Virus record (IMG/VR): IMGVR_UViG_3300042445_001340 | Span: 4,668 to 68,667 of that record | Length of the DNA: 64,000 nucleotides | Source of the DNA: a virus | Strand: one strand, 5' to 3' | Shown here: positions 47,362 to 53,025 of the stretch, one piece after another | How positions within the stretch are numbered: the first letter of the stretch is position 1 | How the letters are laid out: every line of letters begins with the position of its first letter | Notes under the pieces: model-generated | The model's input: the letters and a program-made list of their open reading frames with translations, nothing else | Database searches by the model: none | What the model was told of the DNA's origin: nothing | Made by a program: the position numbers and the translations under genes

Positions 47362-47438
47362 TGGAGTCGGTGACAGGACTCGAACCTGCATAAAACGGAT
47401 TTGCAATCCGTGGCCTAGCCGTTCAGCTACACACCGAC
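47362..47438 (-). tRNA. tRNA-Cys(GCA)
   Basis: Loop TTGCAAA, U73. Confidence 0.9.
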
Positions 47439-47439
47439 A

Positions 47440-47643
47440 TTAAATTTGACGAGTACGTACTACTGTTTCAAAACTACTCCAGCAACGCTCAAACTTCATT
47501 TGATACATTTGCTTGAGTCCGATCAGGTAATTCATACGCTGATCTTCGTCCATGTTATCGTGCATATCCAGGTACAACTGAATGTCGTCAGTGACATTCC
47601 AGCACTGCATAATATTTTGTTCTAGGTCAAAGCGGTCAGTCAT
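47440..47643 (-). CDS. Small conserved phage protein
   Basis: DRFDLEQNIMQCWNVTDDI...NYLIGLKQMYQMKF. Confidence 0.65.
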   Translation of the reverse strand: MTDRFDLEQNIMQCWNVTDDIQLYLDMHDNMDEDQRMNYLIGLKQMYQMKFERCWSSFETVVRTRQI

Positions 47644-47773
47644 TTTGTAGTTCCTGTAATTTTTGTGTTAGTGCTAAGTTAACAAATTCACTTAAAGTTA
47701 AGTTTAAGTTTTTTGCTAATTGTTTTACTTGTTTTAATAGTTGCGCGTCAATGTGTATTGTAATCGTTTTCAT
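47636..47773 (-). CDS. Ribbon-helix-helix DNA-binding protein (45 aa, not in the ORF track)
   Basis: MKTITIHIDAQLLKQVKQLAKNLNLTLSEFVNLAL matches the RHH pattern. Confidence 0.65.
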   Translation of the reverse strand: MKTITIHIDAQLLKQVKQLAKNLNLTLSEFVNLALTQKLQELQND

Positions 47774-47774
47774 G

Positions 47775-48245
47775 TCAATTGGCAAGTACAAATTTTAGTC
47801 TGTCGGCCGCGTAACTTGCAGCAAATGCTTTGGGCTTAACCTGTGCGTCAATATTACAAGTTCCCTTGATATACCCAACAGCCTGTTGTACAACTGCTGA
47901 ACTTTTATAACGCTCGTTGGGATTAATGTCTAAGTGAACTTCAACGTGGCGATCTTCTAAGACGTCTGATAACTCGTGAAATAAGTCACTGACTTTGTAA
48001 ACTTCTTGCATTAGTCGCATTGAGGGCTTATTGGCTTTTTGATCCCAATCCCGTTCACGCTGAATACTACCAAAGATTTTGCACCCATGATTACCATCAA
48101 TATGCACAACAACTGCCAGAGTGTAGTCTGCGTACCAGTTTTCACCAATTTTAACTCGTTCCGAATCAGCACCAAGATAAATCTTAGTTTCTGGTGAACT
48201 TTGTCGAATATAGTTTTTTACTTCTTCAAGATTAAATTCACGCAT
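47775..48245 (-). CDS. YkuK/DUF458-family RNase H-like nuclease
   Basis: IYLGADS, RLMQEV, EVHLDIN, ASYAAD. Confidence 0.8.
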   Translation of the reverse strand: MREFNLEEVKNYIRQSSPETKIYLGADSERVKIGENWYADYTLAVVVHIDGNHGCKIFGSIQRERDWDQKANKPSMRLMQEVYKVSDLFHELSDVLEDRHVEVHLDINPNERYKSSAVVQQAVGYIKGTCNIDAQVKPKAFAASYAADRLKFVLAN

Positions 48246-48258
48246 AGTTTATTTTAAA

Positions 48259-48335
48259 TGGAGGGTCTGGAGGAAGTCGAATCCCCAACCTCTTGGTTCG
48301 TAGCCAAGTGCTCTCATCCATTGAGCTACAGACCC
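48259..48335 (-). tRNA. tRNA-Arg(ACG)
   Basis: Loop CTACGAA. Confidence 0.9.
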
Positions 48336-48338
48336 CGG

Positions 48339-48412
48339 TGGCAGAGGATAGAAGAATCGAACTTCTGACAACGGAATCAAAATCCGTGGTTATACCATTT
48401 AACTAATCCCCA
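48339..48412 (-). tRNA. tRNA-Gln(TTG)
   Basis: Loop TTTTGAT, U1. Confidence 0.9.
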
Positions 48413-48419
48413 ACAAAAC

Positions 48420-48494
48420 TGGCTCCACAGGCAGGGATCGAACCTACGACCAATTGATTAACAGTCAACTGCACTACCGCTGTGCTACTGTGGA
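48420..48494 (-). tRNA. tRNA-Asn(GTT)
   Basis: Loop CTGTTAA. Confidence 0.92.
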
Positions 48495-48495
48495 A

Positions 48496-48708
48496 TACTT
48501 AATACTAGTGCCCGGTGCGCCAACCCCGAGTGAGCTTCAGCGGCAGAAAAGGATACCACTTACACACTATAGCGCATTTTCACTAGAATTAAATATGCTG
48601 GTTACTTTTTCCAGCGTGCACTAACGGGGCACAGTCTTATTCATCCGGACGCCCGACAGGAACAACCCTTGTCATAACCGTTTACGTCTAACGAACCTAA
48701 GGCAGGTT
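48496..48708 (-). ncRNA. Two candidate structured RNAs (K2 48496-48595, K1 48596-48708)
   Basis: K2 closed by UAUUUAAUUCUAGUG/CACUAGUAUUAAGUA; K1 shares motifs with 49559-49641. Confidence 0.55.
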
Positions 48709-48709
48709 T

Positions 48710-48785
48710 TGGCGGGTCTAGGGGGTAACGATCCCCACTCTTCGGCAGTGACAGTGCCGTGTGCGTCCATGAACACTTTAGACCC
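48710..48785 (-). tRNA. tRNA-Asp(GTC)
   Basis: Loop CTGTCAC; atypical T-loop. Confidence 0.88.
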
Positions 48786-48789
48786 AATT

Positions 48790-48873
48790 TGGTACGACTG
48801 GAGGGACTTGAACCCTCAATCCTTGCGGCGATTGATTTTAAGTCAATTGTGTATTCCATTCCACCACAGTCGC
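48790..48873 (-). tRNA. tRNA-Leu(TAA)
   Basis: Loop CTTAAAA, long variable arm. Confidence 0.9.
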
Positions 48874-48878
48874 ATAGC

Positions 48879-49223
48879 TTACATTTTACCGTTTAATTTA
48901 TTTATATTACAGGCTTCTTCGTAACCATACTTAGCTACTACATTCTCAAAAGGACTCTTATGAGTACCATTAAGCCTAGCATCTGCAACATTCTCTTTTC
49001 TAGTACCCCAATACAGATGTTGTGGATTAGAGCACTCACCATTGTTACAAGCATGGCATAAGTCTATACCAATACCTTTCGGAAAATTAGTATTCAAGTA
49101 TTGCGCTAATACGCCTCTATGATTAGTACTATTACCACCACGTTCTATACATGGTTGGCTTAAGTCTAAATGAGAAGTTCTAATATCTCTGGATTCTTTA
49201 ATCCATTCAGTTATTTGAATCAT
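48879..49223 (-). CDS. Free-standing HNH (His-Cys) endonuclease, likely homing
   Basis: LCHACNNGECSNPQHLYWGTRKENVAD; start reassigned to MIQITEW. Confidence 0.8.
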   Translation of the reverse strand: MIQITEWIKESRDIRTSHLDLSQPCIERGGNSTNHRGVLAQYLNTNFPKGIGIDLCHACNNGECSNPQHLYWGTRKENVADARLNGTHKSPFENVVAKYGYEEACNINKLNGKM

Positions 49224-49228
49224 AAATT

Positions 49229-49315
49229 TGGTGGAAACAGTTTGACTCGAACAAACAAGGCCAGTGGCAAAAGATTTACAGTCTTCCCCCGATACCATTA
49301 CGGGACTATGTTTCC
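49229..49315 (-). tRNA. tRNA-Tyr(GTA)
   Basis: Loop CTGTAAA, long variable arm. Confidence 0.88.
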
Positions 49316-49367
49316 ACTTTAAAAGATAATTATACCCGATTAAGCAATCTTGGGCAAATCTAAATTT

Positions 49368-49442
49368 TGGCACGCCCCCAAGGACTTGAACCCTGACTAA
49401 CGGTTTTGGAGACCGACGTGCTGCCAATTACACTAGGGGCAT
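49368..49442 (-). tRNA. tRNA-Trp(CCA)
   Basis: Loop CTCCAAA. Confidence 0.9.
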
Positions 49443-49445
49443 ATT

Positions 49446-49520
49446 TGGTGGTTTTGAGTAGATTCGAACTACTGACCTAGGCCGTATGAAGACCGTGCAC
49501 TACCGCTGTGCTACAAAACC
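49446..49520 (-). tRNA. tRNA with CAT anticodon (Met/Ile2), unusual loop TTCATAC
   Basis: GGTTTTG/CAAAACC-ACCA cloverleaf. Confidence 0.8.
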
Positions 49521-49523
49521 AAC

Positions 49524-49865
49524 GGCCAGAGTACAGAATACTCTGGCCTAATAATAGGTGCCGGTTACATTCTCCGGCGTGACATTTCGTTGTCACTGAA
49601 GACATTGACGCTGTTTAAAGTCCACTAAGGGGGCATAGTCTATAGCCATAAGTAAACAGTAGCTTTAATTGTGTGTTATTTTTGTGTCAGGAAACATCAA
49701 ACCCCGTGAGAGCAGCCCATCTTGTTTTCGCTTCAGCGGACGCAGGACAGTGCCTTTACGCACTGATTTGTTTACAAGCCTGCAATTGTAGTAACAGGAG
49801 CCAATCTTCCTGTATAGCCGGAGCACTCCGGTAGCTTGCGCTAGTTTGGCACGTGTGCTTTACAA
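49524..49865 (-). ncRNA. ORF-free, densely structured RNA block (several candidate ncRNAs)
   Basis: Many hairpins (UAGC-GCAA-GCUA, ACAGGA/UCCUGU, CAGUGC/GCACUG, GUGACA/UGUCAC, GCCGG/CCGGC, 10-bp GGCCAGAGUA). Confidence 0.6.
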
Positions 49866-49867
49866 AG

Positions 49868-49937
49868 TGGATGCGGGGGAAGGATTCGAACCCCTAGGGC
49901 GAGCTTATGAGACTACCCGATCACCTGAATCCCCGCG
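49868..49937 (-). tRNA. Degenerate initiator-like tRNA-fMet(CAT), 70 nt
   Basis: C1:A72 mismatch (CGCGGGG/CCCCGCA); shortened D arm; bulged anticodon stem. Confidence 0.7.
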
Positions 49938-49941
49938 TTAA

Positions 49942-50082
49942 TTAGTACATCTTTTTGAAATCGTCGCTGGTACGATTCCATACGTTTTCTAGATGCTGTA
50001 GTTCTTCCATTGATTGTGGATTTGAGTCTTTGACGAAGTCCTCGAAAGTATATGGTTGAAATACTTCTCGGACACGTGTCAT
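49942..50082 (-). CDS. Small protein (46 aa, not in the ORF track)
   Basis: MTRVREVFQPYTFEDFVKDSNPQSMEELQHLENVW... Confidence 0.5.
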   Translation of the reverse strand: MTRVREVFQPYTFEDFVKDSNPQSMEELQHLENVWNRTSDDFKKMY

Positions 50083-50086
50083 TAAC

Positions 50087-50320
50087 TCACTTAGCATTTA
50101 CGAACTCGTAAAATTTCTTGGACTTTTCAACCATGTCGTTGAAGTCAAATGGCTTTGGCACGAACTTATCTAGTTGTGCAGTGGTTATTGCAGTTTTATC
50201 TTTGACGCTATCAAACATTTCTTGTGCAAACTCTACTGAGGCTGCGTATTCTGCTTGCATTAGCTCTGCTGTCATCTTGAGAATTTCAAGACGAATTTCA
50301 AAAGGAGATTTATTACTCAT
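50087..50320 (-). CDS. Small conserved phage protein
   Basis: MSNKSPFEIRLEILKM...KSKKFYEFV; SD caggaa. Confidence 0.7.
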   Translation of the reverse strand: MSNKSPFEIRLEILKMTAELMQAEYAASVEFAQEMFDSVKDKTAITTAQLDKFVPKPFDFNDMVEKSKKFYEFVNAK

Positions 50321-50423
50321 GGTTTTCCTGTGTGTTGTTGTGTAAAAGTGCCAGGCTTCCACTGGTCTTCCACCTCGTTTTATAGTCCGCGTGTCCTGGA
50401 CTGTAACTTCGGGAGAAGTTAAT

Positions 50424-50498
50424 TGGTACTGAGGGAGGATACCGAGACCTCGACCCCTCGCTTATCAAGCGAGTGCTCTGCCGCTGAGCTACCCCAGT
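50424..50498 (-). tRNA. tRNA-Ile(GAT)
   Basis: Loop TTGATAA; non-canonical T-loop CTCGGTA. Confidence 0.85.
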
Positions 50499-50504
50499 AA
50501 TATT

Positions 50505-50580
50505 TGGCCCCTGAGGTCAACGCCGATGTTGACATTCCCAACTATTGGCAAGGGTGTATACGGCCCCGCTAAACTCAAGG
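50505..50580 (-). ncRNA. 76-nt aberrant tRNA-like RNA ending in CCA
   Basis: 7-bp acceptor CCUUGAG/CUCAGGG-G-CCA; GUCAAC/GUUGAC T-arm-like stem; no UUC loop or canonical D/anticodon arms. Confidence 0.6.
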
Positions 50581-50587
50581 ATAATTT

Positions 50588-50662
50588 TGGTACTCCGAAC
50601 GGGTTTCGATCCCGCTTCTCCAACTTGAAAGGCTGGCGTCCTAGCCACTAGACGACCGGAGT
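50588..50662 (-). tRNA. tRNA-Glu(TTC)
   Basis: Loop CTTTCAA. Confidence 0.9.
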
Positions 50663-52754: not shown

Positions 52755-52839
52755 ATATAAAAACACATTTAAACCGTCCTTCAACGCTAGTCGCTATCTC
52801 CCTTACTAGAGGGCGGAACAGTATGTGCTTTTATATGGA
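52752..52839 (-). ncRNA. Stem-enclosed RNA cassette I
   Basis: 17-bp UCCAUAUAAAAGCACAU/AUGUGUUUUUAUAUGGA. Confidence 0.65.
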
Positions 52840-52859
52840 GACACTCCCTAAAGTGTCCC

Positions 52860-53025
52860 AATATAGTCTTGTGTCAGGATGACAGTCCTGCTGTATCTTA
52901 GAATATCCAAACATTCCCTCTACAGCGGCGGGACGTTTATTTTACAAAGACGGGGCTTTCACCCGTTTCGACCGAAGTGTGCTGCTAACCACTAGGGATG
53001 TGGCAACAAGCATGGCGGGACTTAT
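52860..53025 (-). ncRNA. Two tandem candidate RNAs, each starting GUCCCGCC
   Basis: Motif at 53021-53014 and 52934-52927, each followed by long hairpins. Confidence 0.5.

What the first reader, a model, noticed from the sequence alone, without database searches (positions are those of the whole stretch)
48596..49641. Two paralogous ncRNA motifs with a compensatory base change
Seen (minus strand): 48637-48596 reads AGACUGUGCCCCGUUAGUG-CACGCUGGAAAAAGUAACCAGCA. 49641-49559 reads AGACUAUGCCCCCUUAGUG-[~41 nt]-CACGCCGGAGAAUGUAACCGGCA. The terminal hairpin covaries (GCUGG/CCAGC versus GCCGG/CCGGC) and keeps the 9-nt loop ARAAWGUAA. Inference: a real RNA family with two conserved boxes and a variable insert, of unknown function.
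Basis: seen in the sequence. Interest (0 to 1): 0.7.

Follow-up and report, generated by a model that had tools for sequence, protein, structure and literature searches.

The report
Conserved structured RNA in phage tRNA arrays
The two look-alike motifs are real copies of an uncatalogued family of small folded RNAs that lake-water phages carry inside their tRNA gene arrays, usually right behind tRNA-Asp; what the RNA does is still unknown.

Summary
Both boxes occur exactly twice in the window at the stated coordinates, far above chance.

The copies belong to a wider family. I found 31 full-length hits and 9 reduced copies in uncultivated viral and metagenome contigs.

No Rfam family matches any copy tested. 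There was no blastn hit in 50,697 phage records and no model hit in the T5 tRNA region.

On 22 distinct sequences the proposed helices are 95.8% paired, against 26-41% when partners are slid. 16 of 26 pairs change on both sides.

The family hallmarks are:
- a 5' CCUUAG motif;
- GYGUC;
- a hairpin P4 with an NNCG loop;
- the terminal hairpin P5 with loop A-N(3-4)-GUAA.

Box 1 is not family-wide. The "41-nt insert" in copy B holds the real P4 hairpin.

Copy B is a reduced member (34.9 bits) appended to a separate conserved RNA module.

My best reading is a small structured RNA released from the tRNA precursor. Its mechanism is inferred, not shown. The scan had already flagged a member on another genome (e1-6188319).

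The parts
48596..48708 (-). Copy A: full-length family member. It begins 1 nt after tRNA-Asp and ends 97 nt before tRNA-Asn.
   Evidence: Model R1 scores 149.7 bits and model R2 101.6 bits.
48696..48702 (-). Invariant 5' motif CCUUAGG of copy A.
   Evidence: These columns are invariant in 9 of 9 sequences and kept in the 22-sequence alignment.
48643..48696 (-). 5' domain of copy A: P1 (48696-48692 with 48647-48643), P2 (48688-48684 with 48652-48648), and the optional hairpin P3 (48673-48655).
   Evidence: P1 is 92% paired and has one compensatory C-G to U-A change, in L017. P2 is 91% paired and varies on one side only. P3 covaries: GACA/UGUC, AGCA/UGCU, GAGUAGC/GCUACUC. A competing local hairpin is also 91% paired.
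48616..48632 (-). P4 hairpin of copy A: GUGC-CCCGUUAGU-GCAC.
   Evidence: The 4 counted pairs are paired in 84 of 84 cells and all vary on both sides. 12 stem versions are listed. The loop always has CG at positions 3-4.
48596..48615 (-). P5 hairpin of copy A, GCUGG-AAAAAGUAA-CCAGC, plus the 3' A (box 2).
   Evidence: Paired in 110 of 110 cells, and 3 of 5 pairs change on both sides. The loop is A-N(3-4)-GUAA in all listed members.
49559..49659 (-). Copy B (B3'): reduced family member. Parts: helix CUGUUUA (49659-49653) with UAAACAG (49617-49611); CCUUAG 49630-49625; GCGUC 49611-49607; P4 49596-49579; P5 plus A 49578-49559.
   Evidence: Model R2 scores 34.9 bits, E 3e-5 over 1.02 Mb; the alignment is. 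The fold of 5 B copies is.
49675..49784 (-). B5' module: a separate conserved RNA of about 110 nt upstream of copy B. It is not part of the family.
   Evidence: It stands alone between the fMet-like tRNA and tRNA-Met in L021. It is conserved in the window, L002, L003, L004 and L007 and in L055, L074, L137 and L139. Contigs of relatives in RNA libraries cover it at depth 435.
49524..49548 (-). Terminator-like hairpin between copy B and tRNA-Met. Its U tract is the 5' end of the tRNA.
   Evidence: Found by the scan. The same hairpin follows the other B copies that were read.
48710..48785 (-). tRNA-Asp(GUC) with the unusual T loop AUCGUUA, directly upstream of copy A.
   Evidence: Called by aragorn. 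The same tRNA type is found in at least 119 IMG/VR stretches.

Best explanation
The two motifs are paralogous copies, one full-length and one 5'-reduced, of an uncatalogued family of structured RNAs of about 80-120 nt. These RNAs are transcribed as part of phage polycistronic RNAs, most often as the spacer immediately 3' of tRNA-Asp.

Shown:
- The RNA has a 5' helical domain (P1, P2, optional P3) that displays invariant CCUUAG, CGGU and GYGUCC nucleotides.
- Two abutting hairpins follow. P4 has an 8-9-nt loop NNCG..A.., which resembles a tRNA T loop. P5 has the loop A-N(3-4)-GUAA.

Inferred:
- The element is cut out of the precursor by the host enzymes that mature the flanking tRNAs: RNase P at the 5' end of the next tRNA, and 3' trimming of the upstream tRNA.
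- It then persists as a small stable RNA, like the stable RNAs of unknown function annotated in the tRNA region of phage T5.
- It acts through its invariant loops on a partner that recognises tRNA-like shape, as a mimic or decoy, rather than on the neighbouring gene.

Rough odds: real structured RNA family, above 0.9; released stable RNA, about 0.55; tRNA-like mimic acting in trans, about 0.3.
For: Recurrence:
- Exact-pattern scans found 5 IMG/VR loci and 18 metagenome loci, of which 15 are true members.
- A scan for the linked tRNA-Asp brought 116 further loci, 17 of them with the element.

Structure, on 22 distinct sequences:
- 95.8% of cells are paired, against 26-41% with partners slid by 1-3 columns.
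- 16 of 26 pairs change on both sides, against 6.7 +/- 1.6 in shuffles; 0 of 500 shuffles reach the observed values.
- P4 and P5 are 100% paired, with 12 and 5 stem versions.

Copy B is a member: R2 gives 34.9 bits, E 3e-5.

Placement:
- 18 of 31 full-length hits start 1-2 nt after tRNA-Asp, and 1 starts 2 nt after a tRNA-Leu.
- In L069 the element fills the whole Asp-Asn spacer.
- 9 of 9 reduced copies end 30-34 nt before tRNA-Met.
- The complete T5-like records G001 and G002 hold two copies each, as the window does.

It behaves as an independent module. It also sits between ORFs in an unrelated phage group (L005/L011 clade) and in a T4-like record after regA. 99 of 116 loci with the same tRNA-Asp type lack it.

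T5 carries eight misc_RNA features in its tRNA region: six 'stable RNA with unknown functions' (two of them called tRNA-like), RNA2H, and RNA3, a 'putative tRNA-like RNA'.

Contigs of relatives in RNA libraries cover 48596-48653, at depth 6.65 in X24 and about 21 in X20.
Against: - No experiment or read-level data shows the RNA, its ends or its stability. The RNA-library evidence is assembled contigs of relatives, which may contain DNA.
- One such contig runs uncut from tRNA-Asp into the first 19 nt of the element (X24 record 20).
- MFE z-scores are ordinary: -0.32, -1.73, -0.66 and +0.27.
- P1 and P2 are imperfect. P2 pair 22-60 is unpaired in 10 of 22 sequences. P1 is largely missing in 7 rows. 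A mutually exclusive local hairpin is equally well paired at 91%.
- The alignments were fitted to the model, and many sequences are close relatives, so the number of independent compensatory events is smaller than the cell counts suggest.
- The T-loop likeness rests on loop sequence only. Neither aragorn nor the Rfam tRNA or YrlA models call the element.
- No homology to the T5 RNAs was found.
- In the ORF contexts a cis role looks more natural than a trans role.
Confidence: 0.45

Rival explanations
1. A new class of small self-cleaving ribozyme. It would cut at or near its own 5' edge, freeing the 3' end of the upstream tRNA (or separating two cistrons) without host nucleases.
For: - It starts 1-2 nt after the tRNA 3' end in 19 of 31 full-length hits. 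This is the context reported for HDV-like theta ribozymes, whose cleavage site lies within +/-5 nt of a phage tRNA 3' end (PMC10879173, passages read).
- A structured trailer abutting CCA would hinder exonucleolytic trimming (inference).
- The conservation pattern fits a ribozyme: invariant unpaired nucleotides, freely varying helices, an optional peripheral stem, and rearranged subtypes.
- It is scattered across unrelated phages and gene contexts.
Against: - No ribozyme family of Rfam matches, even at E up to 5-10.
- The helices do not fit the HDV nested double pseudoknot (by inspection).
- The tRNAs here encode CCA, so a 2',3'-cyclic phosphate after or near CCA would need repair. Only 4.5% of theta-linked tRNAs encode CCA.
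- 99 of 116 loci with the same tRNA-Asp manage without the element.
- An RNA-library contig spans the tRNA-element junction uncut (weak).
Confidence: 0.2
2. A cis-acting transcript element, either an RNA that makes RNA polymerase read through downstream terminators (like the put RNAs of phage HK022, recalled from memory) or a processing/stability determinant for the operon.
For: - Two abutting hairpins form the conserved 3' half.
- Every reduced copy that I read is followed by a terminator-like hairpin with a U tract, just before tRNA-Met.
- In the ORF contexts it fills a tight intergenic gap. It is followed 16-18 nt later by an ORF without a Shine-Dalgarno sequence, while other genes of that contig have one.
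Against: - Several full-length copies are followed within a few nt by the next tRNA, with no terminator (L069, L094, L112).
- The U tract after copy B is simply the acceptor strand of tRNA-Met.
- No put-like family was available to test against, so the likeness is recalled.
Confidence: 0.15
3. A metabolite-sensing riboswitch.
For: The conservation pattern is compact, with invariant junction nucleotides. There are two mutually exclusive folds of the 5' domain.
Against: - There is no consistent downstream gene family. What follows is variously tRNA-Asn, tRNA-Met, a 31-aa membrane peptide ORF, a HAD-like phosphatase, a LysM protein, or other RNA hairpins.
- No expression platform is visible; P5 is not followed by a U tract.
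- No Rfam riboswitch matches.
Confidence: 0.05
4. No RNA function. The similarity would reflect duplicated spacer DNA or a DNA-level site, for example a target or by-product of the homing endonucleases that populate these arrays.
For: An HNH endonuclease ORF lies between the two copies (48879-49223). The 17-of-19 identity of box 1 at structurally different places suggests recombination between the copies.
Against: Base pairing is preserved through changes on both sides in P3, P4 and P5 across 22 sequences, and only on the transcribed strand's register. The element is always on the strand of the flanking tRNAs or ORFs. It also occurs in contigs where I saw no endonuclease gene beside it.
Confidence: 0.05

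Closest known systems
Stable RNAs of unknown function in the tRNA region of phage T5 (RNAI, RNAIII, RNAIV, RNA1, RNA2, RNA2H, RNA3, RNAX; annotation of NC_005859)
   Same: Small ORF-free RNAs of about 70-170 nt (RNAX is 719 nt). They are encoded on the tRNA strand between tRNA genes of a T5-type phage. Some are annotated tRNA-like, and their function is unknown. An earlier agent of this scan called the window's genome a lake-water T5 relative.
   Different: No sequence or structure match: model R1 found nothing in the T5 tRNA region at E up to 10. None of the family's boxes is visible in the T5 RNAs that I read. The family also occurs outside tRNA arrays.
HDV-like theta ribozymes next to phage tRNAs (PMC10879173; search listing and passages read, supplements not seen)
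   Same: A small structured RNA placed directly at the 3' end of phage tRNA genes. It is optional, present in many unrelated phages, and some copies are not tRNA-linked.
   Different: Different fold and size. There is no HDV-family Rfam hit. Theta-linked tRNAs mostly lack an encoded CCA and come from gut phages of Bacteroidota and Bacillota. Here CCA is encoded and the contigs come from lake and other environmental samples, with beta-type permuted tmRNAs nearby. Self-cleavage is untested.
Bacterial Y RNA-like tRNA mimics (YrlA, Rfam RF02553)
   Same: A non-coding RNA that uses a T-loop-type hairpin to imitate part of a tRNA. A weak YrlA-like signal lies elsewhere in a related phage (L149 2015-2120, 35.1 bits against a gathering score of 69).
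   Different: The element itself gives no YrlA hit. I saw no Ro60/TROVE gene among the 20 proteins scanned.
Phage T4 species 1 and species 2 RNAs (recalled from memory; no call)
   Same: Stable small RNAs co-transcribed with, and processed out of, a phage tRNA cluster. Their function is unknown.
   Different: Not compared here, because no T4 sequence was fetched.

Membership tests
Any Rfam 15 family | Covariance-model score at or above the gathering threshold, or at least a weak E-value hit over the element | tested here: not met
   The window at gathering gives only tRNA and tmRNA hits. At E<=10 on 47400-50600 nothing overlaps either copy. 10 other loci at gathering and 8 loci at E<=5 give no hit over any element.
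Phage tRNA-cluster stable RNAs (T5 type) | Encoded between tRNA genes on the same strand, with no ORF | tested here: met
   22 of 31 full-length hits have a tRNA upstream within 93 nt. All 9 reduced copies lie 30-34 nt before tRNA-Met.
Phage tRNA-cluster stable RNAs (T5 type) | Accumulates as a discrete stable RNA after processing | tested here: inconclusive
   Only assembled contigs from RNA libraries of relatives are available: depths of 6.65 and about 21 over 48596-48653. Contigs cannot show ends or abundance.
Phage tRNA-cluster stable RNAs (T5 type) | Homology to the annotated T5 RNAs | tested here: not met
   Model R1 gives no match in NC_005859 28000-46000 at E<=10.
HDV-like / theta ribozyme | Nested double-pseudoknot fold (P1, P1.1, P2, P3, P4) recognised by the HDV-family models | tested here: not met
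   No HDV-family hit on the element. The one ribozyme row, CPEB3 at E 9.9, lies on the other strand at 50180-50255, outside both copies. The supported helices are nested local stems.
HDV-like / theta ribozyme | 5' edge within a few nt of a tRNA 3' end | tested here: met
   19 of 31 full-length hits start 1-2 nt after a tRNA.
HDV-like / theta ribozyme | Self-cleavage | not testable with these tools
   This needs in vitro transcription or end-specific RNA-seq.
tRNA / tRNA-like (tRNA, YrlA) | Cloverleaf or tRNA-like module recognised by aragorn or by Rfam RF00005 / RF02553 | tested here: not met
   Searches give no call over the element. Only the P4 loop (for example UUCGAUAAU, UACGAUAAG) resembles a T loop.
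Riboswitch | Consistent association with one downstream gene family, and an expression platform | tested here: not met
   The downstream partners differ. P5 is not scored as a terminator.
Intrinsic terminator | G+C-rich stem followed by a U tract | tested here: not met
   The scan flags the hairpin after copy B (49548-49524), not P5 of either copy.

The most novel reading that the evidence does not exclude
The family is a new class of functional RNA fold that acts on tRNA maturation. It could be a previously unknown self-cleaving ribozyme that trims the trailer of CCA-encoding phage tRNAs. Or it could be an RNA that docks on a tRNA elbow through its T-loop-like P4 and GUAA-ending P5 loops. Either way it has spread as a mobile module among T5-like, T4-like and other lake phages.
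Probability: 0.2. Interest if true: 0.85.

Novelty: new variant of a known kind. Interest (0 to 1): 0.6.

Why it matters
Phage tRNA arrays have been known for decades to hold small stable RNAs whose function is still unexplained. T5 alone has eight misc_RNA features in its tRNA region, six of them labelled as of unknown function.

This family is easier to study than those:
- It has clear covariation and a compact set of invariant nucleotides.
- It has several natural subtypes.
- It occurs in at least three unrelated phage backgrounds.
- Complete T5-like genomes carry two copies each.

That gives a defined construct for self-cleavage, RNase P/E processing, structure probing and pull-down tests. 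If the RNA proves catalytic or tRNA-binding, it would add a new fold to the short list of natural functional RNA classes. If it is only a passenger RNA, it still supplies a model (R2) for annotating a recurrent unannotated gap in environmental phage genomes.

Tried and rejected
Leads that went nowhere:
- Circular permutation. I tested whether copy A plus the cassette at 48496-48595 is a circular permutation of copy B, through the shared word CCGCTGAAGC. That word with one mismatch is not above chance: 17 of 100 shuffles reach 2 matches. The cassette is also absent after copy A in L001.
- Pairing with tRNA-Asp. I tested whether box 1 pairs with the tRNA-Asp anticodon arm (8 of 9 complementary in the window). 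L001 changes the arm without any change in box 1, so I rejected this.
- Group I intron, hammerhead, hairpin and HDV folds. The word resemblances seen by eye had no Rfam support.
- Tertiary pairings. Several candidates are compatible but invariant, so they are untestable here: RCC with GGU, CGG with the P4 loop, and UUAG with UUAG. CUUA with the linker UAAG is only 62% paired.
- Chance pattern matches. L010, L013, L024 and L025 get no model hit. L015 is doubtful (24.2 bits, driven by P5).
- Cultured phages. blastn of five family members against cultured phages gave only chance 20-27-mers or nothing.
- Literature. Searches for a description of this motif found nothing relevant. Subscription journals and supplements were not searched, so it may still be in print.
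- RNA runs. Parts of the stretch without cover say nothing.
- Listing bias. One search shows only hairpins that pair by construction. It therefore omits L092 (long insertion in place of P4) and the L002 B copy (one mismatch in P4).
Full report
**What is in the window.** The window is 64 kb of a 68.7-kb IMG/VR virus record estimated 65% complete. An earlier agent of this scan called it a lake-water relative of phage T5.

Between about 41.6 and 53.7 kb the minus strand carries 23 aragorn tRNA genes, a permuted tmRNA and several ORF-free blocks. Both copies of the finding lie in this array.
- Copy A fills the start of the 215-nt gap between tRNA-Asp (48710-48785) and tRNA-Asn (48420-48494).
- Copy B lies just before tRNA-Met (49446-49520).
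- An HNH endonuclease ORF, tRNA-Trp, tRNA-Tyr, tRNA-Leu and tRNA-Asp lie between them.

**Observation.**
- Box 1 and box 2 each occur twice in the window and nowhere else, even with three mismatches allowed. The chance expectations are 0.09 and 0.00.
- The terminal hairpin differs by one exchanged pair (U-A versus C-G) and keeps a 9-nt loop.
- Folding energy alone is unremarkable, with z-scores of -0.32 and -1.73. Everything below rests on comparison between sequences.

**Known families.** Rfam 15 gives only tRNA and tmRNA in the window at gathering scores. Nothing overlaps either copy at E up to 10.
- The same holds for ten related loci at gathering and eight at E up to 5.
- blastn of five members against 50,697 deposited phage records gives only chance short matches or nothing.
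- The T5 record annotates eight misc_RNA features in its tRNA region, six of them 'stable RNA with unknown functions'. My first model finds nothing there, and I saw no shared boxes in the T5 RNAs that I read.

**Homologues.**
- Exact box patterns found five IMG/VR loci.
- They found 18 metagenome loci. Of these, 15 are true members, L010 and L013 get no model hit, and L015 is doubtful.
- They found two bacterial contigs, which get no model hit.
- These loci showed that copy A has a conserved 5' extension beginning with CCUUAGG.
- The tRNA-Asp upstream has an odd T loop (AUCGUUA), so I scanned IMG/VR for that tRNA. 17 of the 116 new loci carry the element.

**Structure.** Model R1 was built from four sequences and my proposed helices. 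It was used to align 22 distinct full-length sequences.
- 95.8% of cells are standard pairs, against 26-41% when the 3' partners are slid by 1-3 columns.
- 16 of 26 pairs change on both sides, against 6.7 +/- 1.6 in shuffles. No shuffle out of 500 reaches the observed values.
- P4 and P5 are paired in every cell. One search lists 12 P4 stem versions and 4 P5 versions, and L092 adds a fifth P5 version.
- P3 is optional and covaries.
- P1 and P2 are weaker at 92% and 91% paired. P1 has one clean compensatory change, in L017, and is largely absent in seven rows. P2 has an unpaired second position in 10 of 22 sequences. A competing local hairpin is paired just as well.

Caveats: the alignment was fitted to the model, many rows are close relatives, and the listing shows only hairpins that pair.

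The invariant features are CCUUAG, CGGU, GYGUCC, CG at positions 3-4 of the P4 loop, the P5 loop A-N(3-4)-GUAA and the A after P5. Several P4 loops read like a tRNA T loop (UUCGA, UACGA). That is a resemblance, not a test.

**What copy B is.**
- L021 has the fMet-like tRNA and a conserved module of about 110 nt (B5'), followed directly by tRNA-Met with no boxes. An RNA-library contig of another relative shows the same arrangement. So the window's long block is B5' plus a separate element, B3'.
- The family-level model R2 scores B3' at 34.9 bits, E 3e-5 over 1.02 Mb. The other eight B3' copies score 23.6-32.9 bits.
- The R2 alignment puts B's CCCCCUUAG on the family's 5' motif and B's GCGUC on the 3' strand of P2. 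It finds P4 (GUGAC-AACGAAAU-GUCAC) and P5.
- Why box 1 is 17 of 19 identical at two structurally different positions remains unexplained. Possibilities are an internal repeat of a CC.UUAG motif, gene conversion within one genome, or a shared partner.

**Where the family sits.**
- Of 31 full-length hits, 18 start 1-2 nt after tRNA-Asp and one starts 2 nt after a tRNA-Leu.
- Three lie 42-93 nt after tRNA-Asp.
- Nine have no tRNA upstream on the locus; one of these is cut by the contig end.
- The tRNA-free cases are an unrelated phage group and a T4-like record. In the unrelated group the element fills an intergenic gap of about 100 nt, followed 16-18 nt later by SD-less ORFs that start MR(S/A)KEFT. 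In the 160.7-kb T4-like record it follows regA.
- All nine reduced copies end 30-34 nt before tRNA-Met.
- Two complete or near-complete T5-like records hold two copies each, like the window.
- 99 of the 116 loci with the same tRNA-Asp type have no element, so it is not needed to mature that tRNA.

**Mechanism.**
- Shown: this is a conserved, covarying RNA fold on the transcribed strand that moves as a module.
- Inferred: it is released by the enzymes that process the flanking tRNAs, it persists as a small RNA as in T5, and it works through its invariant loops, perhaps as a tRNA-like mimic. I give the whole chain 0.45.
- Ribozyme rival (0.2): it fits the placement at tRNA 3' ends, which is the context of theta ribozymes (PMC10879173, passages read), and it fits the conservation pattern. 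It lacks any fold match. It would also leave a cyclic phosphate on CCA-encoding tRNAs.
- Put-like or stability rival (0.15): it fits the terminator-like hairpin after every reduced copy I read. It does not fit the full-length copies that are followed directly by a tRNA.
- The riboswitch and DNA-level readings are unlikely, for the reasons given under rival explanations.

**Novelty.** This is an uncatalogued RNA family of a known kind, namely small RNAs of unknown function in phage tRNA clusters. It has features not described for that kind, as far as my four literature searches reach: a covariation-supported multi-helix fold, several subtypes, and spread beyond tRNA arrays. The scan had already noted a member on another genome (e1-6188319). 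That note is not independent support.

Noticed in passing
window 49675-49784 (-): B5': a conserved ORF-free RNA module of about 110 nt (UGCAGGC...CCUGACACAAAAAUAAC). It follows an fMet-like tRNA. It stands alone in L021 and carries the reduced family copy behind it in nine other loci. Contigs of relatives in an RNA library cover it at depth 435, comparable to the tRNAs.
   Followed up: partly
window 49868-49937 (-): A tRNA-like gene with initiator signatures (CGCGGGG...CCCCCGCAUCCA, CUCAUAA loop) but a reduced D arm and an odd anticodon stem. Aragorn and Rfam both miss it. It is conserved in L002, L003, L004, L007, L021 and L074.
   Followed up: partly
window 48710-48785 (-): tRNA-Asp(GUC) whose T loop reads AUCGUUA, with positions 54 and 58 swapped relative to the usual U...A. 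The same type occurs in at least 119 IMG/VR stretches of very different contig sizes.
   Followed up: partly
window 49232-49315 (-): A type II tRNA-Tyr(GUA) found only by the sensitive Rfam scan (38.1 bits), not by aragorn. A mechanical 182-aa ORF call runs over it; the real HNH ORF starts at 49223.
   Followed up: no
window 49524-49548 (-): Terminator-like hairpin whose U tract is the acceptor 5' strand of tRNA-Met. The same arrangement follows the reduced copies in L003, L004, L007, L055, L074, L137 and L139.
   Followed up: partly
window 52770-53020 (-): A further ORF-free, hairpin-rich block that shares CCUGACACAAGACUAU with copy B's surroundings. It has a hairpin whose loop ends AGUAA. 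Models R1 and R2 did not score it.
   Followed up: no
window 48496-48595 (-): The cassette between copy A and tRNA-Asn is closed by CUAGUG/CACUAG. It shares CCGCUGAAGC..CGGGGUU with B5'. It is absent after copy A in L001.
   Followed up: partly
L149 2015-2120 (+): A weak Y RNA-like (YrlA, RF02553) hit of 35.1 bits, below the gathering score of 69. It lies about 330 nt downstream of tRNA-Met in a complete 102-kb T5-like record.
   Followed up: no
L044, L062, L127, L143 (just after tRNA-Asp): A mini RNA of about 40 nt ending in CCA sits between tRNA-Asp and the next gene. In L044 the family element follows it.
   Followed up: no
L005/L023 and L011 (downstream of the element): Two different proteins, one HAD-like and one LysM/Tat-signal, share the first codons MR(S/A)KEFT at the nucleotide level. 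Neither has a Shine-Dalgarno sequence, unlike other genes of the contig.
   Followed up: partly
window 47775-48245 (-): An ORF of the RNaseH_like family (PF04308, E 1.9e-18) follows tRNA-Asn, tRNA-Gln and tRNA-Arg. By eye the same synteny is seen in L021, where the protein was not scanned.
   Followed up: no
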